35,137 nucleotides of DNA, from the NCBI GenBank assembly GCA_944358725.1, contig CALVRS010000019.1:1-35137 (forward strand), read 5' to 3'. Shown here piece by piece: positions 2,427 through 23,396 of this stretch (position 1 is its first letter; each line of letters starts with the position of its first letter). The stretch comes from an uncultured Bacilli bacterium. GTDB taxonomy: Bacteria > Bacillota_I > Bacilli_A > RF39 > UBA660. The notes under the pieces were generated by a model. That model was not told the origin of the DNA and did no database searches. It worked only from the letters and a program-made list of their open reading frames with translations. The translations under genes were made by a program, and so were the position numbers.

Positions 2427-2469
2427 AATATCACCACCAAAATTCCAAAAATATTATACCATGTGTCAG

Positions 2470-2498
2470 TTGACTTTGCACTCCATTTACATTATAAT
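2470..2498 (+). promoter_or_regulatory. SigmaA-type promoter of the pilin-like gene
   Basis: TTGACT (2470-2475), 17 nt, TATAAT (2493-2498). AGGTGAG RBS at 2510-2516 precedes the ATG at 2520. Confidence 0.7.
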
Positions 2499-2519
2499 TT
2501 AAATAAAGTAGGTGAGAAT

Positions 2520-2939
2520 ATGAAAAAAGGTTTTACCTTAATCGAATTAATAGCCGTCGTAGCCATATTAGGACTCATAGCCTTAGTAGTCTATCCAGCC
2601 ATAGGTTCAGTCATAAAAAATGCTAGAGAAGAAACTTATAACGACCAAGTAGATGTAATCATAAATGCCGCTAAAGAGTGGAGTACTGATATTAAAAATG
2701 TCGCTAAACTAACATCTGATGGCTCAGCCTATGAACTAACCGTTCAAACCTTAATCGATGAAGGATATATCAAAAACAATGAAATAAAAGACCCAAGAAA
2801 TAGTGAAAAAAACATGGATGGCACCGTTTTAATAAGATATAACAAAGAAATAAAAAGTTATGATTATACCTATAGAGAAAATGAAAAAAATACCATTAGT
2901 ATGCGTATATATCCTAAAAAATCTCTGAAATACCTATAA
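2520..2939 (+). CDS. Type IV prepilin / pseudopilin-like protein with N-terminal cleavage-methylation motif
   Basis: MKKG|FTLIELIAVVAILGLIALV gives the G|FTLIE prepilin-peptidase site with Glu at +5, followed by a hydrophobic helix. Start moved from the track's 2463 to ATG 2520 because of the RBS and promoter position. Confidence 0.85.
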   Translation: MKKGFTLIELIAVVAILGLIALVVYPAIGSVIKNAREETYNDQVDVIINAAKEWSTDIKNVAKLTSDGSAYELTVQTLIDEGYIKNNEIKDPRNSEKNMDGTVLIRYNKEIKSYDYTYRENEKNTISMRIYPKKSLKYL

Positions 2940-6592: not shown

Positions 6593-8641
6593 ATGCAAAA
6601 CTTTATAGAGAAACTAGGTGACATCTTAAAAAAATCTAAAAAAAGTGTCATATATTTTTTCAAAAATAATGTCTTATTTTCAGTATTTATTATTACATCT
6701 TTAATTAATGGCTGTTTAGTACGTTTTTTTACCGTTAAAAACTATAACGCTTTATCGCCAGTTTTAGCTGATTTAGCTTTTATATTAATAATAGGTGCTT
6801 TCGCTTATTTCTTTAAGCCTAAAAATAGATTTAAATATTTTATAACTTGGTCAGTAATATTGACCCTTGTTTGTCTAATAAATTCTATATATTATACAAA
6901 CTACGTTTCATTTACATCATTTTCGCTTTTGGCCACATCGCTTCAGCTAGGTGGTGTAACCGGTGCATTAAAAACCATTATGGAACTCAAAGACTTCTGC
7001 TATATATGGGCTCCATTATCCTTAATATTTGTACACCGTAAACTATTAAAACAAAACTACTATAGTAAAATAAAAATCAAAAATAAACCAAAAGTAAGCG
7101 TTCTAAAAGCCCTAGTTGCTGCTGTAATAGTCTTAGGTTTCTTTGTATCTGGTTTAACTGGAACTGATATCAGTAGACTTTATAAACAGTGGAATAGAGA
7201 ATACGTTGTCATGAAATTCGGTATTTACGTTTATCAAGGAAATGACCTAATCGCTAGCTTAAAACCACAAATAAGTCCATTATTTGGCTATGACCAAGCC
7301 GCTAAAGAATTCCGTGATTATTATAAAGAAAACAAAATAGAAGATAAAACTAATGAATATACCGATATATTTAAAGGAAAAAATGTCATTGCCATACATG
7401 CTGAAAGTATTCAAAATTACCTTTTAGATACCGAAATAAATGGTAAAGCTATCGCGCCTAACTTAAAGAAATTAGCCGACGAAGGAATGTACTTTTCTAA
7501 CTTCTATTCACAGGAAAGCGTTGGAACAAGTAGTGATACTGAATTTACTTATAGCACCTCACTCTTGCCCGCATCAAGTGGTACTGTCTTTGTTAGTTAC
7601 TGGGATAGAGAGTACCCATCAATTCAAAAACTTTTAAAAGAAGAAAACTATTACGTCTTCAGTATGCACGCCAATAAAGGAAACATGTGGAATAGAGAAG
7701 TCATGCATAAACAGTTAGGCTATAATCGTTTCTATAACTATGATAATGATTATAAACTAGATGAAAATATTGGCCTAGGTCTTTCCGATAAATCATTCTT
7801 CAAACAGTCCGTTCAAAAAATTAAAAATATCGCTAATAAAAATGAAAAATTTTATGGACTATTAATCATGTTGACCAATCACACACCATTTGAAGGAGTA
7901 GAAGACCAAACAGACTTAGATCTAACATACCACTATACTAAAAAAGATGATATAACTGGAGAGGAAACAACAGTTACTAATAATTACTTAAAAGATACAA
8001 CCTTAGGCAAATATTTTACAACCGCGCATTATGCCGATGAAGCCATTGGCGAATTTGTCGAAGAGCTAGATAAAGAAGGATTATTAGAAGATACCATCTT
8101 AGTCATTTATGGTGACCATGACGCTAAAATAAAAAGATCTGAATATGATTATTATTATAACTATGATCCACAAACCGATTCTAAAAGAGATAAAAACGAC
8201 CCAGAATATAAAGAATTTACTAAATACGATTATGAATTAAACCGTAAAGTCCCATTCATAATTTGGACTAAAGATGAAGATCTAAGAAAAAAAATAAATA
8301 AAGAAATCACTACTATAACTGGTATGTATGATGTCTTACCAACCTTAGGAAATATGCTTGGTATCTACGATGAATATGCCTTAGGTCATGATATATTCTC
8401 AGAAGAAGATCACTATGTTGTCTTTCCAAATGGTAACTGGATAACCGATAAAATGTATTATGATAGTCAAAATGGCCAGGCCATCGTCTTTGACGAAGAA
8501 TCTGTAATAAGTAAAGACTATATTGCAAAATACACAGAAATTGCTGAAAAAGAAATTGCTGTTTCTAATGACATAATCGTTCACGATTTAATCAAAAAAA
8601 CCAAAGAAACAGATGAAGTAATAAAAGGAGGGCAAAAATGA
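6593..8641 (+). CDS. ltaS: LTA synthase family protein (polyglycerolphosphate transferase, sulfatase-fold)
   Basis: Five N-terminal TM helices plus an extracellular sulfatase-like domain with NVIAIHAESIQ and NFYSQESVGTSSDTEFTYSTSLLP motifs typical of LtaS. Start set at ATG 6593, 4 nt after GAGGTGG, rather than TTG 6581. Confidence 0.85.
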   Translation: MQNFIEKLGDILKKSKKSVIYFFKNNVLFSVFIITSLINGCLVRFFTVKNYNALSPVLADLAFILIIGAFAYFFKPKNRFKYFITWSVILTLVCLINSIYYTNYVSFTSFSLLATSLQLGGVTGALKTIMELKDFCYIWAPLSLIFVHRKLLKQNYYSKIKIKNKPKVSVLKALVAAVIVLGFFVSGLTGTDISRLYKQWNREYVVMKFGIYVYQGNDLIASLKPQISPLFGYDQAAKEFRDYYKENKIEDKTNEYTDIFKGKNVIAIHAESIQNYLLDTEINGKAIAPNLKKLADEGMYFSNFYSQESVGTSSDTEFTYSTSLLPASSGTVFVSYWDREYPSIQKLLKEENYYVFSMHANKGNMWNREVMHKQLGYNRFYNYDNDYKLDENIGLGLSDKSFFKQSVQKIKNIANKNEKFYGLLIMLTNHTPFEGVEDQTDLDLTYHYTKKDDITGEETTVTNNYLKDTTLGKYFTTAHYADEAIGEFVEELDKEGLLEDTILVIYGDHDAKIKRSEYDYYYNYDPQTDSKRDKNDPEYKEFTKYDYELNRKVPFIIWTKDEDLRKKINKEITTITGMYDVLPTLGNMLGIYDEYALGHDIFSEEDHYVVFPNGNWITDKMYYDSQNGQAIVFDEESVISKDYIAKYTEIAEKEIAVSNDIIVHDLIKKTKETDEVIKGGQK

Positions 8642-9285
8642 AAAAGAAACGTAAATTAAATATCAAAAGAATAGTATTAGTATTAATCTTACTCGCACTA
8701 ATAATCGTTGGAAGTGTTTTAGCTATTCAAAAATTAACTCATAAAGAAGAAAAAGTAAAAGAGGTAAAAGAAGTGGCTGCCATCAAAGCATATGGTTATA
8801 CCTTAAAAGAAAACGCCACAGATTATTATAAAAAACTTTTCAAAAATCTAGAAAAAACCTTAAATGAAAAAGAAGTCGATGAAGAAAAATATGCTAGTCT
8901 AGTTGCTCAAATGTTTATCGCCGATTTCTTTAACTTAGATAATAAAGAAAGTAAAAACGATGTTGGTGGTAAACAGTTCGTCTATTCAAACTTTCAAAGC
9001 GACTTCGAAAAACTTGCCATGGACGCTGTATATAAATCAGTTGAAAGCAATGTCTATGGTGAGCGTAAACAAGAACTTCCTGAAGTAACAAATGTCACCG
9101 TCACTAAAGTAAAAAATGAAAATTATAAATATGGCGAAAATAATGATGAAAATGCTTATATTTATAACTTTGAAATTGAATATAAAAAAGATTTAGGTTA
9201 CCAAAAAGAAGGAAGCTTAACCTTGATCCATAATAGTCAAAAAATAGAAATTGCCTCTATGAGCGAAAAAACAAGTGCCGTCTAA
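8638..9285 (+). CDS. Membrane-anchored hypothetical protein, translationally coupled to the ltaS-like gene
   Basis: 215 aa. ATGA start/stop overlap with the upstream gene and a single N-terminal TM helix. No recognisable family. Confidence 0.6.
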   Translation: MKKKRKLNIKRIVLVLILLALIIVGSVLAIQKLTHKEEKVKEVKEVAAIKAYGYTLKENATDYYKKLFKNLEKTLNEKEVDEEKYASLVAQMFIADFFNLDNKESKNDVGGKQFVYSNFQSDFEKLAMDAVYKSVESNVYGERKQELPEVTNVTVTKVKNENYKYGENNDENAYIYNFEIEYKKDLGYQKEGSLTLIHNSQKIEIASMSEKTSAV

Positions 9286-9342: not shown

Positions 9343-9822
9343 ATGAAAAGAAAATATATACTTATCATACTTTTAATTGCTGTAACATGTATAATTTTAA
9401 TCGGTTATACAGCCTTTCAAATAAGAATAAAAATAAATCCAGAAAATAACAATTGGAATATAGAAATCACAAATATAACCGTTAAAACTGTAAAACAAAA
9501 TGCCAAAAAAATAATCGACCCCATCATCTCGGAAACATCTGCCACATTTAAAACTAAACTTCAAACCAAAGGCGATAGTATGACATATGAAGTAACTGTT
9601 GCAAATAAAGGCACCATCCCAGCTAAAGTAGAAAAAATCGAAATGACTAAATCAAATAATAAAAACGTAAACTTTACATCAGATAAAATAAATAAAAATG
9701 ATCTCCTAGAGCCAGGAGAAAAGCAAAAATTTACGGTAACCGTCTCTTATGACGAAAACGCTGAATTAGAAGAAGCTATCGATACAACCTTCTCAATAAA
9801 ATTAGATTATATTCAAAATTAA
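9343..9822 (+). CDS. Membrane-anchored / secreted hypothetical protein (probably beta-sandwich)
   Basis: 159 aa with an N-terminal TM/signal anchor (YILIILLIAVTCIILIGYTAF). The beta-rich body has a WNIEITNI...GDSMTYEVTVANKGTIPAKV pattern. Family not recognised. Confidence 0.6.
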   Translation: MKRKYILIILLIAVTCIILIGYTAFQIRIKINPENNNWNIEITNITVKTVKQNAKKIIDPIISETSATFKTKLQTKGDSMTYEVTVANKGTIPAKVEKIEMTKSNNKNVNFTSDKINKNDLLEPGEKQKFTVTVSYDENAELEEAIDTTFSIKLDYIQN

Positions 9823-10250: not shown

Positions 10251-10471
10251 TGAACTTACATCTGCAATTTAAAATCAAAGAAAATCCAAACTACCTAAGA
10301 TATCTTCGTCAAAACTCTTACTGGTATAAAATTTTAAATAGAAATCCTAATCAATTTAAAAAATTTGAAGAAGAAGCTAAAAAAGCATATCATCTTTTTA
10401 AAATAGATCGACTAGAACAAGCTATAAACACCTTCGAAATGTTAGAAAAAATTTTGGGAACTTTAAAATAA
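10250..10471 (+). CDS. YlbE-like protein
   Basis: 73 aa. ENPNYLRYLRQNSYWYKILNRNPNQFKKFEEE matches the YlbE-like pattern. TAATG one-base overlap with the upstream gene. Confidence 0.6.
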   Translation: MNLHLQFKIKENPNYLRYLRQNSYWYKILNRNPNQFKKFEEEAKKAYHLFKIDRLEQAINTFEMLEKILGTLK

Positions 10472-10498
10472 TGTGGTAAAATATAACTGGTGATTGAA

Positions 10499-11020
10499 AT
10501 GCGTATTATAAGTGGAAAATATAAAGGAAAAAAATTAAAAGGTTTTAATATAGAAGGCACTAGACCAACTATGGATCGGGTAAAAGAATCTCTATTTGCC
10601 ATTATCCAAAACAAATTAAAAGAAAGCACTATCTTAGACCTTTTTGCCGGAAGTGGCGCATTAGGTCTTGAAGCCATCAGTAATGGCGCTAAAACATGCT
10701 ATCTAATTGATAACTCTAAAGAAGCTATAAATATAATTAAAGAAAATAGTCAAAACATCGAAGAGGATCTTTATATAATTCAAACCGACTATAAAAAATT
10801 TCTAAAAGAAACAAATTTAAAATTTGATATTATCTTTTTAGATCCTCCATATAAAACAAATCAGTTAAATAAAGCCTTAAAAATAATTGAAGAAAAAGAT
10901 CTCTTAACTAAGCATGGCATAGTCGTTTGTGAATATGAAAATATAAATCCTATCACCAGTTTAAAACTCATAAAAGAAAAAAGTTATGGACCAAAAAATA
11001 TTAAGATTTTTGGAAAATAA
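10499..11020 (+). CDS. rsmD: 16S rRNA (guanine966-N2)-methyltransferase RsmD (YlbH)
   Basis: MRIISGKYKGKKL...TRPTMDRVKESLF...LDLFAGSGALGLEAISNGA...FLDPPY are the RsmD hallmarks. Start at ATG 10499, 5 nt after GGTGA. Confidence 0.9.
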   Translation: MRIISGKYKGKKLKGFNIEGTRPTMDRVKESLFAIIQNKLKESTILDLFAGSGALGLEAISNGAKTCYLIDNSKEAINIIKENSQNIEEDLYIIQTDYKKFLKETNLKFDIIFLDPPYKTNQLNKALKIIEEKDLLTKHGIVVCEYENINPITSLKLIKEKSYGPKNIKIFGK

Positions 11021-11084
11021 TTTTTTTTTTGCAAAATTTTAAAATAAAAAAAGGAAATCGTAAAAAAAAGTCGTATGTTAATAT

Positions 11085-13082
11085 ATGAGGGAGGTGAAAA
11101 ATATAAAAAAATATCCATATATCAAACAAAAAGGTTTAAAAGAATGTGGACCCGCTTGTGTGCAGATGATATTAAAATACCACGGTGGATATGTAAACAT
11201 TGATAAACTAGGAGAAATGATGAATACAAATCAAAATGGCACCACCGCTTATAACATTTGTGAAACCTTAAAAGACTTAGGCTTTAATAGTGTAGGTATA
11301 AAAACCACTGACTTTTCAAAAATAATTCTGCCTTGTATAGCTCACGTCATAGTAAATCACTCCTATGGACATTATGTCGTGATATATAAAGTAGATTATA
11401 AAAATAATATATTTTTGATTGCCGATCCGGCTACTTCCTTCAAAAAAATAACTTTTAAAGAATTTTATCAAATGTATAGTGGCGTTGTTATTCAAATGTA
11501 TCCCATAAAACCAATTGTCTGTGAAAAAAAACCAAATATACCTAAATTTATTTGGCATTATATGAAAAACAATATAAAATTAGTTTTATTAACAAATATT
11601 ATATCCTCAATCGTAAGTTTACTGTCTTTAGCGTCCATATTAAGTTTAACATCACTTTTAACAACCTTTAATAAAAAAACATTTATTTTTATGATTCTGT
11701 TCCTTTTTATAAAAGAAATCTTTATATTATTTAAAAATATTCTTTATACAAAATTCAATCTAAAGTTAGACCAAACATTAACTATGGATATTTTTAAAAA
11801 AATTATAAACCTCCCTTATCGTTATTATCGCCGTAAAACAACAGGAGAAATAACTAATTATTTAAACGACCTTTATATAGTAAAAAACACTATTAGTCGC
11901 ATCAGTGAAATAATCTTCATAAAAATTCCATATCTTGCTATTTTATTAATTATTTTGTTATCCATAAAAGCTGAACTTCTGCTTTTTATAGTTTTATATA
12001 CTTTTGTATATATTATCTTTTATAAAAAAACAAATACTATCTTAATTGATAAAATGACTAGAGAAAAAAATAAAGTAAACTCATATGTCATAGAATCTAT
12101 TAATGGCTTTGAGACAATCAAAAATCTAAATATAACTAAAAAAATACAAGAAAAATTTAAAAGCTATTATCAATCTTTAATAAGTATAACTAAAAAAATA
12201 TATCAAAATTCATATTATCTCTCTTTTATTAATAGCATTTTAAAAATAGTAATTATAATAATTGTATTTTTATATGCCAATAATAACCTTAATAATTTTA
12301 TTATACTTTATATCATAATTTCAAACATAATAGCTATTATTCAAGATTTTTTTGATTTTAATTATAATTTAGAAGAACTCAAATATTCTTTTTTAAGTAT
12401 TATCGAATTAGATTATCAACTTCAAAAAAGAAAAATAGCCCAAGCTACTACCGAAGAAATTATCATAAAAAATCTTAGATATTCTTATGATAGGCAAACT
12501 GAAATTTTAAAAGGAATAAACCTAACCATTAAAAATAAAAGTAAAGTTTTAGTAACCGGCTCATCAGGTAGTGGTAAAAGTACTTTGTTTCAAATATTAA
12601 AAGGATACTATAATGACTATAGTGGTACCATAACCATCGGTCAAAAAGATATAAAAAATTACTTTTTTGAAAATATTTTATATTTATCCTCCAAAGAATA
12701 TCTTTTTACCGGCACCTTAGCTGATAATTTAAATTTAAAAGAAAAAAATCCAAATAGTCCATATATATGTCAAATAGAAGATATGGTCAAAAATAACTAT
12801 TATCAACTAATAGAAGAAAATGGTTTCAATCTATCAAGTGGTCAAAAGCAAAGAATAACTTTAGCTAGAGCTCTTTCAAATTTTAATATTTTAATTATTG
12901 ATGAAGGGCTTAATCAAGTAAGTGTTGATATGGAAAGAAAAATTTTAAAAAATCTTTTCAAAAATTATAAAGATAAAATCATAATTTATATTTCTCATCG
13001 TTTAGATAATTTAGATCTATTTGATCAATTTATTAAAATTGAAAAAGGACATATTGTTTTAAATCAAAGGCGAAATAACTAG
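11085..13082 (+). CDS. Peptidase-containing ABC transporter (C39 double-glycine peptidase + 6-TM permease + ATPase): bacteriocin/peptide exporter
   Basis: C39 triad context: Q-x5-C (KQKGLKECGPAC), GHYVVIYK, IADPA. ATPase motifs: Walker A GSSGSGKST, signature LSSGQKQR, Walker B ILIIDEG, H-loop SHR. The exact start is uncertain (see findings). Confidence 0.9.
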   Translation: MREVKNIKKYPYIKQKGLKECGPACVQMILKYHGGYVNIDKLGEMMNTNQNGTTAYNICETLKDLGFNSVGIKTTDFSKIILPCIAHVIVNHSYGHYVVIYKVDYKNNIFLIADPATSFKKITFKEFYQMYSGVVIQMYPIKPIVCEKKPNIPKFIWHYMKNNIKLVLLTNIISSIVSLLSLASILSLTSLLTTFNKKTFIFMILFLFIKEIFILFKNILYTKFNLKLDQTLTMDIFKKIINLPYRYYRRKTTGEITNYLNDLYIVKNTISRISEIIFIKIPYLAILLIILLSIKAELLLFIVLYTFVYIIFYKKTNTILIDKMTREKNKVNSYVIESINGFETIKNLNITKKIQEKFKSYYQSLISITKKIYQNSYYLSFINSILKIVIIIIVFLYANNNLNNFIILYIIISNIIAIIQDFFDFNYNLEELKYSFLSIIELDYQLQKRKIAQATTEEIIIKNLRYSYDRQTEILKGINLTIKNKSKVLVTGSSGSGKSTLFQILKGYYNDYSGTITIGQKDIKNYFFENILYLSSKEYLFTGTLADNLNLKEKNPNSPYICQIEDMVKNNYYQLIEENGFNLSSGQKQRITLARALSNFNILIIDEGLNQVSVDMERKILKNLFKNYKDKIIIYISHRLDNLDLFDQFIKIEKGHIVLNQRRNN

Positions 13083-13093
13083 AAGGAGACAAC

Positions 13094-13225
13094 ATGTATT
13101 TAAAAAATAGTGAACTTATGCAAGTAAAAGGAGGAGGCCAAGGTCTTTGGGCTGCCATAGGAGGAATTATTGCCTTCATAATTGGCCTAGCTGATGGCTT
13201 TTTAAACCCAATCAAATGCAATTAA
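13094..13225 (+). CDS. Double-glycine-leader peptide A (43 aa; predicted mature 29 aa, hydrophobic, glycine-zipper)
   Basis: AAGGAG at 13083-13088, then ATG 13094. Sequence MYLKNSELMQVKGG|GQGLWAAIGGIIAFIIGLADGFLNPIKCN. The leader fits EL..[IV].GG. Not in the ORF track because it is under 60 aa. Confidence 0.8.
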   Translation: MYLKNSELMQVKGGGQGLWAAIGGIIAFIIGLADGFLNPIKCN

Positions 13226-13377
13226 AAGATTGTGAATTAAAAACTATAAGCGGTGGCGCTCTTACTTCAACCCTTATTAACGCTATCGTCAAAGGTTTTA
13301 ATCTTATAATTGAACTTGGTAAAAGCTTAGGCTCGACCATAAGACGTGCCATCTCCGGTAAATCTTGCAGTATTTAA
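13216..13377 (+). CDS. Double-glycine-leader peptide B (53 aa; predicted mature 39 aa, cationic amphipathic)
   Basis: ATG 13216 lies inside the last codons of peptide A (10-nt overlap) and is the only start after the in-frame stop at 13192. Sequence MQLKDCELKTISGG|ALTSTLINAIVKGFNLIIELGKSLGSTIRRAISGKSCSI. Same leader architecture as peptide A. Confidence 0.75.
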   Translation: MQLKDCELKTISGGALTSTLINAIVKGFNLIIELGKSLGSTIRRAISGKSCSI

Positions 13378-13399
13378 GTAAGCGAAAGCTTGCTTTTTT
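13378..13399 (+). terminator. Rho-independent terminator closing the exporter/peptide operon
   Basis: GTAAGC, GAAA tetraloop, GCTTGC (one G-U pair), then TTTTTT. It starts 1 nt after the peptide B stop. Confidence 0.75.
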
Positions 13400-13421
13400 A
13401 CTATTTAATGTTCTAATTTAC

Positions 13422-13450
13422 TTGCAAACACAACCTCTCCGTGTTATAAT
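13422..13450 (+). promoter_or_regulatory. SigmaA promoter of rpsU (extended -10)
   Basis: TTGCAA (13422-13427), 17 nt, TGtTATAAT (13442-13450). Confidence 0.75.
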
Positions 13451-13478
13451 ATCATTAGCCAAGAAGGGAGGGATTTTT

Positions 13479-13682
13479 ATGACAAAAGTAGTAGTTAGAA
13501 ATGGCAATGTCGATGGTGCACTTAGAAACCTAAAAGCTGCCAATAGTAAAGATGGCTCCCTAGCACAGTTAAGAGAAAAACAAGATGGATATCTAAAACC
13601 AGGAGTTAGAAGAAGAAACGCTAAAAAAGAAGGCATTAAAAATGCTCGTCGTCGTTTCCGTCGTGAAAATCGTGATTATTAA
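13479..13682 (+). CDS. rpsU: 30S ribosomal protein S21
   Basis: MTKVVVRNGNVDGALRNLKAANSKDGSLAQLREKQDGYLKPGVRRRNAKKEGIKNARRRF, with RBS GGGAGGG upstream. The track ORF (13365) is over-extended upstream through the promoter. Confidence 0.92.
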   Translation: MTKVVVRNGNVDGALRNLKAANSKDGSLAQLREKQDGYLKPGVRRRNAKKEGIKNARRRFRRENRDY

Positions 13683-13707
13683 AGGCCATATTATAATGGC
13701 TTTTTTC
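13682..13707 (+). terminator. Hairpin/terminator (or attenuator) after rpsU
   Basis: AAGGCCAT, 6-nt loop, ATGGCCTT, then a T-run. Confidence 0.65.
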
Positions 13708-13729
13708 TAAAATTAAAGGGGGAAAAATT

Positions 13730-14170
13730 ATGCGTAATCAAATTTTAGAAGATTTAAAAACTGCTATGAAAAATCAAGACAAAGAAAAACTCTCAGTAAT
13801 AAGAATGGTCAAAGGATCTATTCAAATGAGTGAACTAAATAAAAAACATGAGCTTTCAGATGATGAAGTAATAGATGTTATAACTAAAGAAATAAAATCA
13901 CGTAAAGATTCTATCAATGAATTTCAAAAAGGTGGTAGAGAAGACTTAATAACTAAAACCCAAAGAGAAATAGATATTTTATCAGAATATTTACCTAAAC
14001 AGTTAACCAAAGAAGAAATAACTTCTATAATAAATGATGTTTTTAATGAAGTAAAACCCGAAAGTTCAAAAGATATGGGAAAAGTAATGAAAGTTCTAAC
14101 ACCTAAAATTAAAGGAAAAGCGGACATGGGTTTAGTTAGTCAAATTGTTAAAGAAAAAATAAATAGATAA
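13730..14170 (+). CDS. yqeY: GatB/YqeY domain protein
   Basis: The 146-aa sequence ILEDLKTAMKNQDKEKLSVIRMVKGSIQ...EIKSRKDSINEFQKGGREDL is typical of YqeY. rpsU-yqeY adjacency matches Bacillus. Confidence 0.88.
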   Translation: MRNQILEDLKTAMKNQDKEKLSVIRMVKGSIQMSELNKKHELSDDEVIDVITKEIKSRKDSINEFQKGGREDLITKTQREIDILSEYLPKQLTKEEITSIINDVFNEVKPESSKDMGKVMKVLTPKIKGKADMGLVSQIVKEKINR

Positions 14171-14172
14171 TT

Positions 14173-14197
14173 AAAAGAACCACAAAATGGTTCTTTT
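14173..14197. terminator. Bidirectional terminator shared by yqeY (+) and the collagen-like gene (-)
   Basis: Perfect 10-bp stem AAAAGAACCA / TGGTTCTTTT with a 5-nt loop, flanked by A/T runs on both sides. Confidence 0.8.
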
Positions 14198-14203
14198 AAA
14201 AAA

Positions 14204-15094
14204 TTATGGTCCAGTAGGTCCTGTTGGTCCGGTAGGTCCAGTTGGTCCAGTAGGTCCCGTCGCACCTTCAGTGCCTTGTGGTCCGGTAGGTCCAGTCGCA
14301 CCTTCAACACCTTGTGGTCCAGTAGGTCCCGTCGCACCTTCAGTGCCTTGTGGTCCGGTAGGTCCCGTCGCACCTTCAACACCTTGCGGTCCAGTAGGTC
14401 CAGTCGCACCTTCAGCACCTTGTGGTCCGGTAGGTCCCGTTGCCCCTTCAGTGCCTTGTGGTCCAGTAGGTCCCGTCGCACCCTCAGTGCCTTGTGGTCC
14501 AGTAGGCCCAGTCGCACCCTCAACACCTTGCGGTCCGGTAGGTCCAGTTGGACCTGCAATAGTACTTGCTGCTCCAGTCGGTCCAGTAGGACCTGTTGCT
14601 CCAGTAGGTCCAGTTGGTCCAATAGCTGTACTTGCTGAACCAGTAGGACCAGTAGCTCCTGCAGGAATTGTTAAATTTAAAAATAAATTAGGTGCTGTTC
14701 CGGTTATACTTGCTAAAGCTGCACTACCCGGTGCTCCTGTTGTTACTGTTCCAATAGTTATGTTAGGTGTTGCACCAGTCGCACCAGTCGGTCCCGTTGC
14801 GCCAGTAGCTCCACTTTGACCAGCAGGTCCAGTAGGTCCAGTCGCTCCAGCAGGTCCAGTAGGTCCAGTTGCCCCCGCAGGGATGCTAAAAGTAAATACT
14901 GCATCTTGATTAGTACCAGTATTAGTAACTGAAGCCGCACTACCCGGTGCCCCAGTTCTAGTTACGCCAACAGCTACAGTTGTTGGCCCTGCAGGCCCAG
15001 TAGGTCCTGTTGGACCAACATTGCCAATTTTAGCTTGACAACGGCGACCTTCAGCTAATATCTGTTCTATTTTATTACATTTATTATTGTTCAT
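14204..15094 (-). CDS. Collagen-like triple-helix repeat protein (GXT/GPQG repeats) with two short non-collagen beta modules
   Basis: 296 aa. RBS GGAAAGGAGTG lies upstream of the ATG (15092-15094 complement). It has long runs of GPT, GAT and GPQG.EGAT triplets. The other long ORFs across 14140-14940 are repeat artefacts. Confidence 0.85.
14244..14531. repeat. Eight tandem 36-nt repeats inside the collagen-like gene (each encodes [10 protein letters not shown][VTA]E)
   Basis: Units start at 14244, 14280, 14316, 14352, 14388, 14424, 14460 and 14496. The consensus on + is GGTCCnGTAGGTCCnGTCGCACCTTCAnnnCCTTGy, with only a few substitutions per unit. Confidence 0.9.
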
Positions 15095-23024: not shown

Positions 23025-23396
23025 ATGAGAAAATTTTATGTATGTAAAAAATGTGGCAACACTGTATCACTTTTAGTAGAAGGCAAAGGCACATTAACAT
23101 GTTGTGAAAAACCAATGGAACTTTTAAAACCATCTGCATCAGATGCGGCTTTAGAAAAACATGTACCAAACTGTGAAGTTAGAGACGATAAAATAATTGT
23201 TAAAATAGGCGAAGTAATGCATCCAATGGATGAAGATCATTATATAAACTTTGTGGCTTTAGAATATAATGGCAATATTCAAATTCATAATTTCAAACCA
23301 AAGGATGATCCAATTTGGGCCTTCGATTATGTTGAAAATTCTGTAGTATATGCATATTGTAATAAACATGGATTATGGAAGACAAATATTAATTAA
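23025..23396 (+). CDS. dfx: Desulfoferrodoxin (class I superoxide reductase)
   Basis: N-terminal desulforedoxin site CKKC...CC, plus centre II residues EKHVP, HPMDEDHYI and YCNKHGLW. RBS TAGGAG. Confidence 0.9.
   Translation: MRKFYVCKKCGNTVSLLVEGKGTLTCCEKPMELLKPSASDAALEKHVPNCEVRDDKIIVKIGEVMHPMDEDHYINFVALEYNGNIQIHNFKPKDDPIWAFDYVENSVVYAYCNKHGLWKTNIN

What the first reader, a model, noticed from the sequence alone, without database searches (positions are those of the whole stretch)
11085..13399. Unannotated pair of double-glycine-leader peptides behind a C39-peptidase ABC exporter: a compact, apparently novel two-peptide bacteriocin-like locus
Two small genes invisible to the >=60 aa ORF track begin 11 nt after the exporter stop and end 1 nt before a GAAA-tetraloop terminator.

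- Peptide A: MYLKNSELMQVKGG|GQGLWAAIGGIIAFIIGLADGFLNPIKCN.
- Peptide B: MQLKDCELKTISGG|ALTSTLINAIVKGFNLIIELGKSLGSTIRRAISGKSCSI.

Both 14-residue leaders have the canonical double-glycine architecture: Glu at -8, Leu at -7, Ile/Val at -4, Leu at -12 and GG at -2/-1. That is the substrate signature of C39 peptidase domains. The adjacent exporter retains the Q/C/H/D peptidase residues.

Mature A is neutral and very hydrophobic, with a G9-A13-G17-G21 small-xxx-small zipper. Mature B is amphipathic, about +4 in charge, and carries GKSLG. A hydrophobic plus a cationic partner, each with GxxxG, is the class IIb (lactococcin G / plantaricin EF type) pattern. I do not recognise either mature sequence as a known bacteriocin.
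Basis: partly seen in the sequence, partly recalled or inferred. Interest (0 to 1): 0.85.

Follow-up and report, generated by a model that had tools for sequence, protein, structure and literature searches.

The report
Conserved exporter-linked secreted peptide pair
Two real but unannotated small genes sit behind a peptide-cleaving exporter and form a new, widespread family that resembles a two-peptide bacteriocin, yet it is chromosomally fixed next to a ribosomal protein gene in uncultured gut Bacilli and has no immunity gene beside it.

Summary
A 665-aa C39-peptidase ABC exporter (11085-13082) is followed after 11 nt by two overlapping small genes, A (13094-13225, 43 aa) and B (13216-13377, 53 aa). 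Both carry 14-residue double-glycine leaders, and a hairpin terminator overlaps the B stop codon.

Both are genuine genes:
- They are intact in 13 distinct orthologous loci whose exporters are only 43-58% identical.
- dN/dS is 0.07-0.41.
- They are the only GG-leader ORFs in all six frames of the window.

The pair belongs to a large unnamed family: at least 115 A clusters and 350 B clusters at 50% identity. All come from uncultured Bacilli or Mycoplasmatota MAGs, and every source name seen is "hypothetical". Mature B matches no curated family. Mature A sits at the edge of the lactobin A/cerein 7B class IIb family.

The best reading is a processed, secreted, equimolar, membrane-active two-peptide bacteriocin-like system. 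It departs from classical class IIb loci in four ways:
- No immunity or accessory gene in this clade.
- Deep vertical inheritance directly upstream of rpsU.
- No plasmid or phage copies.
- One near-universal C-terminal Cys in each peptide, which suggests a disulfide-linked heterodimer.

Function is inferred, not shown. Interest is moderate to high, and I file it as a new variant of a known kind.

The parts
11070..11084 (+). Conserved upstream motif GTCGTATGTTAATAT just before the exporter's ribosome-binding site. It may be an extended -10-like element (TGT-TAATAT). Its function is unknown.
   Evidence: The motif aligns across 11 orthologous loci while the rest of the rsmD-exporter spacer diverges. 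The consensus scan calls no sigma-70 promoter in this spacer.
11089..11096 (+). Strong Shine-Dalgarno sequence GGGAGGTG for the exporter.
   Evidence: It is invariant in 9 of 11 orthologs, and reads GGAGGTG in the other two.
11085..13082 (+). Peptidase-containing ABC exporter (PCAT), 665 aa as listed. The functional start is probably the near-cognate ATA at 11103, 6 nt after the Shine-Dalgarno sequence. Domains: C39 roughly nt 11109-11501, transmembrane domain roughly 11586-12275, nucleotide-binding domain roughly 12507-12908.
   Evidence: Pfam gives C39 1.4e-30, ABC_membrane 6.4e-19 and ABC_tran 1.2e-19. The protein aligns over its full length to PCAT1 (4RY2), E 1.6e-61, and to ComA (8HF7). 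Q15/C21/H100/D116, Walker A and B, the signature motif and the H-loop are conserved. At the homologous start position the orthologs carry ATA, ATC or ATT in 8 of 11 and ATG in 3. L005 has no in-frame ATG, GTG or TTG upstream.
13083..13089 (+). Shine-Dalgarno sequence AAGGAGA of peptide A.
   Evidence: Read directly from the sequence. An equivalent AAAGGAG or AAAGGGG is conserved in the orthologs.
13094..13225 (+). Peptide A precursor, 43 aa. Leader 13094-13135; mature 29-aa hydrophobic peptide 13136-13222.
   Evidence: Listed as an ORF. Intact in 13 distinct orthologous loci with dN/dS 0.09-0.41. The profile search finds 115 family clusters. AlphaFold2 predicts a helix over residues 17-37, pLDDT 82. 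F14, D/E20, G21 and C28 (mature numbering) are invariant and P25 is present in 75 of 76.
13216..13377 (+). Peptide B precursor, 53 aa. Leader 13216-13257; mature 39-aa cationic amphipathic peptide 13258-13374. Its start overlaps the end of A by 10 nt and has no Shine-Dalgarno sequence of its own, which implies translational coupling.
   Evidence: Listed as an ORF. Homologs are 60-79% identical. dN/dS is 0.07-0.20. The profile search finds 350 clusters at 50% identity with E<=1e-3. AlphaFold2 predicts a helix over residues 16-49, pLDDT 70. A and B overlap by 1-14 nt in every ortholog.
13376..13401 (+). Intrinsic terminator: 8-bp stem, GAAA loop and U-run. It overlaps the B stop codon.
   Evidence: Found by the terminator scan. 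RNAfold gives -13.3 kcal/mol, z -2.97. A hairpin plus T-run sits at the same place in the orthologs, with different stem and loop sequences.
13422..13450 (+). Promoter of the downstream rpsU gene (TTGCAA, 17-nt spacer, TG-n-TATAAT). It marks the 3' boundary of the peptide operon and is not part of it.
   Evidence: Found by the promoter scan, 10/12 matches plus the TG extension. CTTGAAAAC...GTGTTATAATAT is conserved in the orthologs.

Best explanation
This is a three-gene operon for a secreted peptide pair.

Proposed mechanism:
1. The exporter is a homodimeric peptidase-containing ABC transporter. It recognises the amphipathic 14-residue leaders of A and B.
2. Its C39 domain (Cys21/His100) cleaves after Gly-Gly.
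3. It pumps the mature 29-aa A and 39-aa B out at the cost of ATP.
4. A has a strong ribosome-binding site. B is translated by coupling to A, because the two genes overlap. The exporter appears to start at a weak AUA codon. The cell would therefore make a little exporter and much peptide, with A and B at about 1:1.
5. Outside the cell, the two helical peptides are proposed to pair through their conserved small-xxx-small and GxxxG faces.
6. They probably also join through a disulfide between their single C-terminal cysteines. The complex would then insert into a target membrane and permeabilise it, as class IIb two-peptide bacteriocins do.

What is shown and what is inferred:
- Shown: gene reality, leader and exporter features, operon layout, conservation, helicity (predicted), and family size.
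- Inferred: processing, export, 1:1 pairing, the disulfide, the membrane target, and antimicrobial activity.

Producer immunity is unexplained in this clade. It may be encoded elsewhere, or it may be intrinsic, for example through lack of the receptor.
For: Exporter:
- It has intact catalytic and ATPase motifs and aligns over its full length to PCAT1 and ComA.

Leaders:
- Both have the GG-leader consensus positions. Several orthologs match GG-leader bacteriocin models: TIGR01847 at 18.4 bits against a cut-off of 15.7, and TIGR03949 at 25.1 against 21.5.

Linkage of the three genes:
- Exporter, A and B are contiguous in this order in every locus examined, 19 distinct B variants in all. In the window's clade there is a 10-13 nt gap and a 1-14 nt overlap. 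In four more distant lineages a 126-149-aa gene sits between exporter and A.
- Natural single-ORF A-B fusions that keep both leaders exist (P0155, P0275). This is Rosetta-stone evidence that A and B act together.

Selection and structure:
- Both peptides are under purifying selection.
- Both are predicted helical.
- Small-xxx-small and GxxxG motifs and conserved charged residues are present (A D/E20; B D/E19, K/R22, R29, R30).
- A is hydrophobic and neutral. B is amphipathic with charge +4.

Cysteine:
- A C-terminal Cys is present in 92/93 A sequences and 121/122 B sequences.

Other points:
- One distant locus (L036) has a 56-aa transmembrane ORF coupled after B, the usual form of a class II immunity gene.
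- The exporter, and above all its transmembrane domain (38% identity), evolves faster than the flanking housekeeping genes (70-90%). That is what one expects of a competition-related function.
Against: - No immunity gene and no accessory gene lie in or next to the operon in the window or in its 12 closest orthologous loci.
- The locus is vertically inherited at a fixed site beside rpsU over deep divergence. It is single-copy and absent from plasmid, phage and viral collections. Bacteriocin loci are typically accessory, variable and mobile (general knowledge).
- Mature B has no detectable relationship to any characterised bacteriocin.
- There is no expression or activity data.
- The organism is an anaerobe (desulfoferrodoxin). 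Extracellular disulfide formation is therefore not assured.
Confidence: 0.6

Rival explanations
1. The peptides have a physiological, self-directed role. After GG-leader processing, A and B would stay in or on the producer's own membrane. There they would serve as small subunits or regulators of an envelope, division or sporulation process. They would not be a weapon. The exporter would act as their dedicated processing and insertion machine.
For: - The module sits immediately upstream of rpsU, 97-271 nt away, in 14 of the 17 loci with enough downstream flank. This holds across lineages with S21 at 49-62% and YqeY at 44-60% identity.
- It is single-copy and under purifying selection, and this clade has no immunity gene.
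- It is absent from plasmids, phages and viral contigs.
- The host genomes are small, 1.3-1.5 Mb. Retaining the module there implies sustained value.
- A is essentially a transmembrane helix, with a conserved acidic residue and a Pro kink.
Against: - I know of no precedent for PCAT substrates acting as resident membrane subunits (own knowledge).
- The exporter and peptides evolve faster than the neighbouring housekeeping genes: 50-67% against 70-90% identity.
- B is a cationic amphipathic helix, typical of membrane-attacking peptides.
- One distant locus carries an immunity-like small transmembrane ORF.
Confidence: 0.2
2. One or both peptides are secreted signals, that is, quorum-sensing or induction pheromones of the ComC, BlpC or EntF type. 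The PCAT would export them and a receptor encoded elsewhere would sense them.
For: - GG-leader peptides exported by PCATs include pheromones (PMC7018657 and PMC7595303, abstracts).
- There are weak sub-threshold matches to the ComC, BlpC, VP1 and EntF models. These are driven by the leaders.
- B is cationic with a C-terminal Cys, as in some induction factors (own knowledge).
Against: - No histidine kinase, response regulator or Rgg-type gene appears near the locus, in the window or in any related locus whose genes were listed.
- A is a very hydrophobic 29-mer (GRAVY +1.07) and a poor diffusible signal.
- Two obligatorily coupled peptides, natural A-B fusions and conserved helix-packing motifs all fit a heteromeric membrane complex better.
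Confidence: 0.12
3. The small ORFs are chance ORFs or decaying remnants and make no product. The exporter would then have another substrate.
For: - Gene callers often skipped B. It was not called in L001-L004.
- The source names seen are only 'hypothetical protein' or are missing.
Against: - The ORFs are intact in all 13 distinct orthologous loci, where synonymous divergence is near saturation, with dN/dS 0.07-0.41.
- The Shine-Dalgarno sequence, the overlap architecture and the terminator are all conserved.
- There are hundreds of family clusters.
- They are the only GG-leader ORFs in the window.
Confidence: 0.01

Closest known systems
Class IIb two-peptide bacteriocins (lactococcin G, enterocin 1071, plantaricin EF/JK)
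   Same: - Two adjacent co-transcribed genes encode GG-leader prepeptides.
- One peptide is hydrophobic and the other cationic and amphipathic.
- Conserved GxxxG or small-xxx-small helix-packing motifs are present.
- A C39-ABC exporter is dedicated to them.
- The expression layout implies an equimolar ratio.
   Different: - No adjacent immunity gene and no accessory protein in this clade.
- Mature B has no detectable homology. The PDB profile searches, which cover whatever two-peptide bacteriocin structures have been deposited, return only chance hits at E<=10.
- Scores against the lactococcin G models stay far below cut-off: at most 26.6 bits against 37.
- Each peptide has one near-universal C-terminal Cys.
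- The locus is chromosomal, vertically inherited and fixed next to rpsU.
Lactobin A/cerein 7B class IIb family (NCBIfam TIGR03949)
   Same: Peptide A shares the GG leader followed by a Gly/Ala-rich hydrophobic N-terminal stretch. Eleven of 13 A orthologs hit the model, and one (L007) passes the curated cut-off at 25.1 bits against 21.5.
   Different: - The window's own A scores 16.7 bits, below the cut-off.
- The match covers the leader plus roughly the first half of the mature peptide.
- The invariant C-terminal module F-x5-(D/E)-G-F-x-(N/R)-P-x-x-C lies outside the matched stretch, so the model does not account for it.
PCAT1 of Clostridium thermocellum (PDB 4RY2) and ComA of Streptococcus (PDB 8HF4-8HF7)
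   Same: The domain order C39-TMD-NBD is the same. The catalytic Gln/Cys/His/Asp and the ATPase motifs are present. The alignment covers the full length: E 1.6e-61 for PCAT1 and 4e-53 for ComA. From my own knowledge, PCAT1 also works without an accessory protein.
   Different: - It scores below the curated TIGR01193 cut-off, 240 bits against 524.
- The Q-loop Gln is replaced by Ser in this lineage.
- It probably starts at a near-cognate AUA/AUU/AUC codon.
- ComA exports a pheromone and works with ComB (own knowledge). Here there is no ComB-like gene.
Mbov_0121-family peptidase-domain ABC transporters of mycoplasmas (NCBIfam NF045998)
   Same: These are also PCAT-type exporters in genome-reduced relatives of the Bacilli. 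The window exporter hits the model at E 1.5e-54.
   Different: The score of 185 bits is far below the 500-bit cut-off, so this exporter is not a member. I know of no described substrate for that family, so it gives no functional guidance.

Membership tests
Peptidase-containing ABC transporter (PCAT / bacteriocin ABC exporter) | N-terminal C39 domain with the catalytic Gln, Cys, His and Asp (not a Cys-less C39-like domain) | tested here: met
   Pfam Peptidase_C39 scores 1.4e-30. Q15, C21, H100 and D116 align to the PCAT1 residues and are conserved in the orthologs.
Peptidase-containing ABC transporter (PCAT / bacteriocin ABC exporter) | ABC transmembrane domain plus a nucleotide-binding domain with Walker A, Walker B, signature motif and H-loop | tested here: met
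   ABC_membrane and ABC_tran are both found. The motifs GSSGSGKST, LSSGQKQR, ILIIDEG and ISHRL are conserved. The Q-loop Gln is Ser in this lineage.
Peptidase-containing ABC transporter (PCAT / bacteriocin ABC exporter) | Score above the curated NCBIfam TIGR01193 cut-off | tested here: not met
   The score is 240.4 bits against a cut-off of 523.85. This is a divergent member of the superfamily, not of the curated subfamily.
Double-glycine (GG) leader peptides | A leader of roughly 14-30 aa ending in GG/GA/GS, with hydrophobic residues at -4, -7 and -12 and an acidic residue at -8 | tested here: met
   Both leaders fit this pattern. It is conserved in the orthologs. Against the 15-position TIGR01847 model, B scores 13.6 bits against a cut-off of 15.7 and A gets no hit. 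The L021 A ortholog passes at 18.4 bits.
Double-glycine (GG) leader peptides | Cleavage after GG by the cognate C39 domain | not testable with these tools
   This needs an in vitro cleavage assay or mass spectrometry of the secreted peptides.
Class IIb two-peptide bacteriocins | Two different GG-leader prepeptide genes adjacent in one operon | tested here: met
   A and B overlap by 10 nt and share one terminator. The same layout appears in all 19 distinct loci.
Class IIb two-peptide bacteriocins | Immunity gene in the same operon or adjacent to it | tested here: not met
   Between the exporter stop and the rpsU promoter, the only + strand ORFs of 25 aa or more are A, B and an in-frame TTG extension of rpsU itself (13365-13682). 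The neighbours are rsmD and rpsU-yqeY in the window and in its close orthologs. Only one distant locus (L036) has an immunity-like 56-aa transmembrane ORF.
Class IIb two-peptide bacteriocins | GxxxG-type helix-helix motifs in both peptides | tested here: met
   In A, mature positions 9/13/17/21 are small in 96-100% of 76 sequences. In B, G21xxxG25 is present at 100%/94%. Helices are predicted for both.
Class IIb two-peptide bacteriocins | Antimicrobial activity that needs both peptides in about equal amounts | not testable with these tools
   This needs synthetic peptides and killing assays. The gene overlap only implies coupled, roughly 1:1 synthesis.
Class IIb two-peptide bacteriocins | Sequence homology of the mature peptides to a characterised two-peptide bacteriocin | tested here: not met
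   B has only leader-driven, sub-threshold hits. PDB profile searches with A and B return only chance hits. A is borderline to TIGR03949 only.
Lactobin A/cerein 7B family (TIGR03949) | Score at or above the curated cut-off of 21.5 bits | tested here: not met
   The window's A scores 16.7 bits. Orthologs score 16.9-25.1 bits, and only the L007 peptide passes.
Peptide-pheromone systems (ComC/BlpC/EntF type) | A cognate histidine kinase and response regulator, or an Rgg-type receptor, encoded with the peptide and exporter | tested here: not met
   No such domains occur in the genes flanking the locus, in the window or in the related loci whose genes were listed.

The most novel reading that the evidence does not exclude
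The PCAT-A-B module is an ancient core trait of a deep clade of uncultured, genome-reduced gut Bacilli and Mycoplasmatota. It has stayed anchored upstream of rpsU for a very long time. Its product would be a covalent heterodimer, A-S-S-B, joined through the conserved C-terminal cysteines. I know of no two-peptide bacteriocin with such a link. Its primary role would be self-directed or kin-directed, not classical interference competition: for example envelope or sporulation physiology, fratricide, or interaction with the host membrane. Immunity would then be intrinsic.
Probability: 0.2. Interest if true: 0.8.

Novelty: new variant of a known kind. Interest (0 to 1): 0.6.

Why it matters
These organisms are abundant, uncultured, small-genome members of human and animal gut communities, and almost nothing is known about how they interact with neighbours or host.

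- **A family missed by annotation.** The peptide family is large, and in the samples examined it either was not called or carries only the name "hypothetical protein". Defining it gives a ready-made model for finding it. Its signature is: GG leader; A ending in F-x5-(D/E)-G-F-x-(N/R)-P-x-x-C; B carrying N-A-I-V-K-G...G-K-S-L-G-S-x-x-R-R...C.
- **If it is antimicrobial.** It would be a new two-peptide scaffold from unculturable gut bacteria, possibly the first with an inter-peptide disulfide. It can be made by chemical synthesis; the predicted reduced average masses are 2943.5 Da for A and 4046.8 Da for B.
- **If it is not a weapon.** Deep, site-fixed conservation in reduced genomes without an immunity gene would point to a new physiological use of the PCAT/GG-leader export route.

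Tried and rejected
- **Same-species contigs for dN/dS.** L001-L004 are 99.7% identical to the window and carry no information, so I used more distant loci instead.
- **AlphaFold2 on a concatenated A+B paired alignment.** The aim was to test A-B helix packing and Cys proximity. Only single-peptide models were obtained.
- **Metagenome scan with the broad B alignment.** The narrow alignment gave only 5 loci, so the architecture statistics rest on 19 distinct loci.
- **First GG-leader regular expression.** It was too strict and found nothing. A corrected version found exactly A and B.
- **Sequence-motif literature search.** It returned nothing. The RF39 + bacteriocin search and the disulfide + two-peptide bacteriocin search returned nothing relevant.
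- **Rfam.** No known RNA element lies in 10300-14300.
- **Lanthipeptide, sactipeptide or glycocin (S-glycosylated C-terminal Cys).** I considered and rejected these. No LanM/LanBC, radical-SAM or glycosyltransferase gene lies in or beside the operon, either in the window genes I scanned or in the close orthologous loci whose gene lists I have.
- **Match of B to EF-G/TetQ.** The NCBIfam EF-G2 model gives E 0.002 and PDB 7UVP gives E 0.04. I judged this a short motif coincidence, GG-x-I-x-A-x-F-I/L-x-A-I-x-KG, and did not pursue it.
- **The 126-149-aa protein found between exporter and A in distant loci.** It matches no Pfam family and has no homolog anywhere in the window (tblastn).
- **Fold search of single-helix models.** I did not run it, because the result would be meaningless.


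Full report
**1. Observation**

The region reads as the first-stage reader described.
- An ORF at 11085-13082 encodes a 665-aa protein with Peptidase_C39 (E 1.4e-30), ABC_membrane and ABC_tran domains.
- Eleven nucleotides after its TAG stop, behind the Shine-Dalgarno AAGGAGA, starts peptide A (13094-13225, 43 aa).
- Peptide B (13216-13377, 53 aa) starts at an ATG inside the last codons of A, a 10-nt overlap.
- An 8-bp hairpin with a GAAA loop and a U-run follows (13376-13401; dG -13.3 kcal/mol, z -3.0).
- Both leaders are 14 residues, with G-1, G-2, V/I-4, L-7, E-8 and L-12.
- Mature A (29 aa) is neutral and very hydrophobic, GRAVY +1.07.
- Mature B (39 aa) has net charge +4 and a helical hydrophobic moment up to 0.64.
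- A pattern scan of all six frames of the 35-kb window finds only these two GG-leader ORFs.

**2. Are they genes?**

Exact and near-exact copies occur in four metagenome contigs that are 99.7% identical to the window. These are uninformative.

A scan of species-representative genomes with the exporter, plus look-ups of B homologs, gave 13 distinct orthologous loci. Sources include 'Firmicutes bacterium CAG:822' and uncultured Bacilli MAGs of 1.3-1.5 Mb.
- In these loci the exporter is only 43-58% identical to the window's.
- Every locus nevertheless has exporter, a 10-13 nt gap, A, a 1-14 nt overlap and B, with no frameshift or stop.
- Nei-Gojobori estimates show synonymous sites near saturation (pS 0.34-0.74).
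- dN/dS is 0.09-0.41 for A, 0.07-0.20 for B and 0.14-0.37 for the exporter.
- The Shine-Dalgarno sequence of A is conserved. So are the absence of a separate Shine-Dalgarno sequence for B, the overlap, and a terminator with varying stem and loop sequence.

The small ORFs are real, translated genes.

**3. The exporter**

- It aligns over its full length to PCAT1 (4RY2, E 1.6e-61) and ComA (8HF7, E 4e-53).
- Q15, C21, H100 and D116 of the C39 domain are conserved, as are Walker A, the signature motif, Walker B and the H-loop. The Q-loop Gln is Ser in the window's lineage but Gln in six orthologs.
- The transmembrane domain is the fastest-evolving part: 38% identity, against 61-65% for the C39 and nucleotide-binding domains.
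- It scores below the curated cut-offs of TIGR01193 (240 bits against 524) and of the mycoplasma NF045998 family (185 against 500).

A detail emerged at the 5' end.
- All orthologs have an invariant strong Shine-Dalgarno sequence, GGGAGGTGA or GGAGGTGA.
- This is followed 5-7 nt later by ATA, ATC or ATT in 8 of 11 loci and by ATG in 3.
- Upstream reading frames are inconsistent between loci.
- One locus (L005) has no in-frame ATG, GTG or TTG at all upstream.

The listed ATG at 11085 overlaps the Shine-Dalgarno sequence. The functional start is more likely the ATA at 11103. A conserved weak start for the exporter, a strong Shine-Dalgarno sequence for A and coupled translation for B together imply little exporter and abundant A and B at about 1:1. 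This is an inference.

**4. The family**

- A profile of 13 A sequences retrieves 115 clusters (90% identity level). Every source name seen is missing or 'hypothetical protein [Bacilli bacterium]'.
- A profile of 13 B sequences, run against 1.84 billion 50%-identity representatives, finds 350 clusters with E<=1e-3 and 43 with E<=1e-10. They are almost all 49-57 aa.
- The few names recovered are 'hypothetical protein' from Bacilli or Mycoplasmatota MAGs. One variant is seen on 525 contigs. One related contig is labelled human gut metagenome.
- Two representatives (P0155, P0275) are natural A-B fusions in one ORF with both leaders retained. This is Rosetta-stone evidence that the two act together.

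Conserved positions:
- In A: small residues at mature positions 9/13/17/21 (96-100% of 76 sequences); invariant F14, D/E20, G21 and C28; P25 in 75 of 76.
- In B: small residues at 4/5/9, D/E19, G21xxxG25, R29, R30 and C37.

A Cys within 0-5 residues of the C-terminus is present in 92/93 A sequences and 121/122 B sequences, usually as the only Cys.

AlphaFold2 predicts a short leader helix plus one long helix in each peptide. For A the helix covers residues 17-37 (pLDDT 82) with a kink at the conserved Pro. For B it covers residues 16-49 (pLDDT 70).

**5. Genomic context**

In the window and its close relatives the order is brkB, ltaS, two unknown genes, ylbD, ylbE, rsmD, [exporter-A-B], rpsU, yqeY, ..., rpsB, tsf.
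- The flanking proteins are 70-90% identical between loci.
- The exporter is about 50% identical, mature A about 60% and mature B about 67%.
- The module is therefore vertically inherited in place, but evolves faster than its neighbours.

More distant loci (L031 from a Mycoplasmatota MAG, L033/L034, L035, L036) have S21 at 49-62% and YqeY at 44-60% identity to the window's.
- The module is still present there. In L031, L035 and L036 it still sits directly upstream of rpsU.
- Over 19 distinct B variants the exporter is always directly upstream.
- rpsU starts 97-271 nt after the B stop in 14 of the 17 loci with enough flank.
- These distant loci carry an extra 126-149-aa single-transmembrane protein between exporter and A. 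It has no Pfam match and no homolog in the window.
- L034 also has a second ABC half-transporter after B. L036 has a 56-aa transmembrane ORF coupled after B, which looks like an immunity gene.
- The window's clade has none of these extras.

No histidine kinase, response regulator, Abi/CAAX protein, modification enzyme or mobile-element gene lies near the locus. B has no tblastn match in plasmid, phage or viral-contig collections. Rfam finds nothing in the region.

**6. Comparison with known families**

- The NCBIfam and Pfam hits of B cover the leader only and stay below the cut-offs.
- A hits TIGR03949 (lactobin A/cerein 7B class IIb family) in 11 of 13 orthologs. The window's A scores 16.7 bits against a cut-off of 21.5, and only one ortholog passes, at 25.1. 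Scores against the lactococcin G alpha and beta models reach at most 26.6 bits against 37.
- Profile searches of all PDB sequences give only chance hits.
- The conserved motifs occur in no paper in the searchable library.

**7. Interpretation**

The best-supported mechanism (about 0.6) is a PCAT-processed, secreted, coupled peptide pair. It would act as a helix-helix heteromer in a membrane, so it works like a class IIb two-peptide bacteriocin. The paired C-terminal cysteines suggest parallel packing and an inter-peptide disulfide.

It should not be filed as a class IIb member. The adjacent immunity gene and homology to characterised members were tested and not met, and activity is untested.

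The deep, site-fixed, single-copy conservation in small genomes without an immunity gene keeps another reading alive: a self-directed or kin-directed physiological role (about 0.2). A pheromone role (about 0.12) lacks a receptor and fits the very hydrophobic A poorly. A non-coding artefact is excluded.

**8. Verdict**

This is a new, large and so far unnamed family: a new variant of a known kind, the PCAT plus GG-leader two-peptide system. Interest is 0.6. A bacteriocin or microbiome specialist would find the family size, the rpsU anchoring, the missing immunity gene and the paired cysteines noteworthy and directly testable. The general logic of the system is familiar.

Noticed in passing
window 11085-11105; orthologs L005-L029 at the homologous site: The exporter probably starts at a near-cognate codon. 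This is ATA at 11103 in the window, ATA/ATC/ATT in 8 of 11 orthologs overall (the window included) and ATG in 3, placed 5-7 nt after an invariant strong Shine-Dalgarno sequence. The listed ATG at 11085 overlaps that sequence, and upstream frames are inconsistent between orthologs.
   Followed up: partly
window 11050-11084: Two conserved motifs of unknown function lie between rsmD and the exporter's ribosome-binding site: AAAGGAAA and GTCGTATGTTAATAT. The consensus scan finds no sigma-70 promoter in this spacer, so the operon's promoter is unidentified. It may be an extended -10 element, or the operon may be read through from rsmD.
   Followed up: partly
window 12681-12707 (exporter residues about 533-541): The Q-loop glutamine of the ABC ATPase is Ser in the window and in four orthologs, and Gly in one. 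It is Gln in the other six. Both sites of the homodimer would carry the substitution.
   Followed up: partly
window 13252-13296 (peptide B residues 13-27): The junction of leader and mature B (GG-x-I/L-T-x-T-L/F-I-N-A-I-V-K-G) gives weak repeated hits to a segment of EF-G2 and TetQ. NCBIfam gives E 0.002 in 12 of 16 members, and PDB 7UVP gives E 0.04. This is probably a coincidental short motif.
   Followed up: no
L031 7507-7887; L034 7399-7842; L035 5819-6232; L036 4986-5435: Distant relatives of the locus carry an extra 126-149-aa single-transmembrane protein between exporter and peptide A. It matches no Pfam family and is absent from the window's clade. It could be an accessory or immunity protein.
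   Followed up: partly
L036 5738-5908; L034 8257-9987: One distant locus has a 56-aa hydrophobic ORF translationally coupled after B, which looks like an immunity gene. Another has a second ABC half-transporter directly after B.
   Followed up: no
window 14204-15094 (- strand): This ORF encodes a collagen-like protein with long GPT/GAT triplet repeats (Pfam Collagen, 1.3e-23). It resembles exosporium or surface-filament proteins. Its length varies between orthologous loci.
   Followed up: no
window 8638-9285 and 9343-9822: Two conserved genes of unknown function lie downstream of ltaS. Each has an N-terminal hydrophobic segment, judged by eye. The second has a weak Ig-like (HYDIN/VesB) match and is only about 47% conserved between orthologs.
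   Followed up: no
window 2463-2939: A small protein with a prepilin-type N-terminal methylation motif (N_methyl, 1.2e-7). It suggests a type IV pilus or competence pseudopilus component in this small genome.
   Followed up: no
window 23025-23396: A desulfoferrodoxin (superoxide reductase) gene. It indicates an anaerobic lifestyle, which bears on whether an extracellular disulfide between A and B could form.
   Followed up: no
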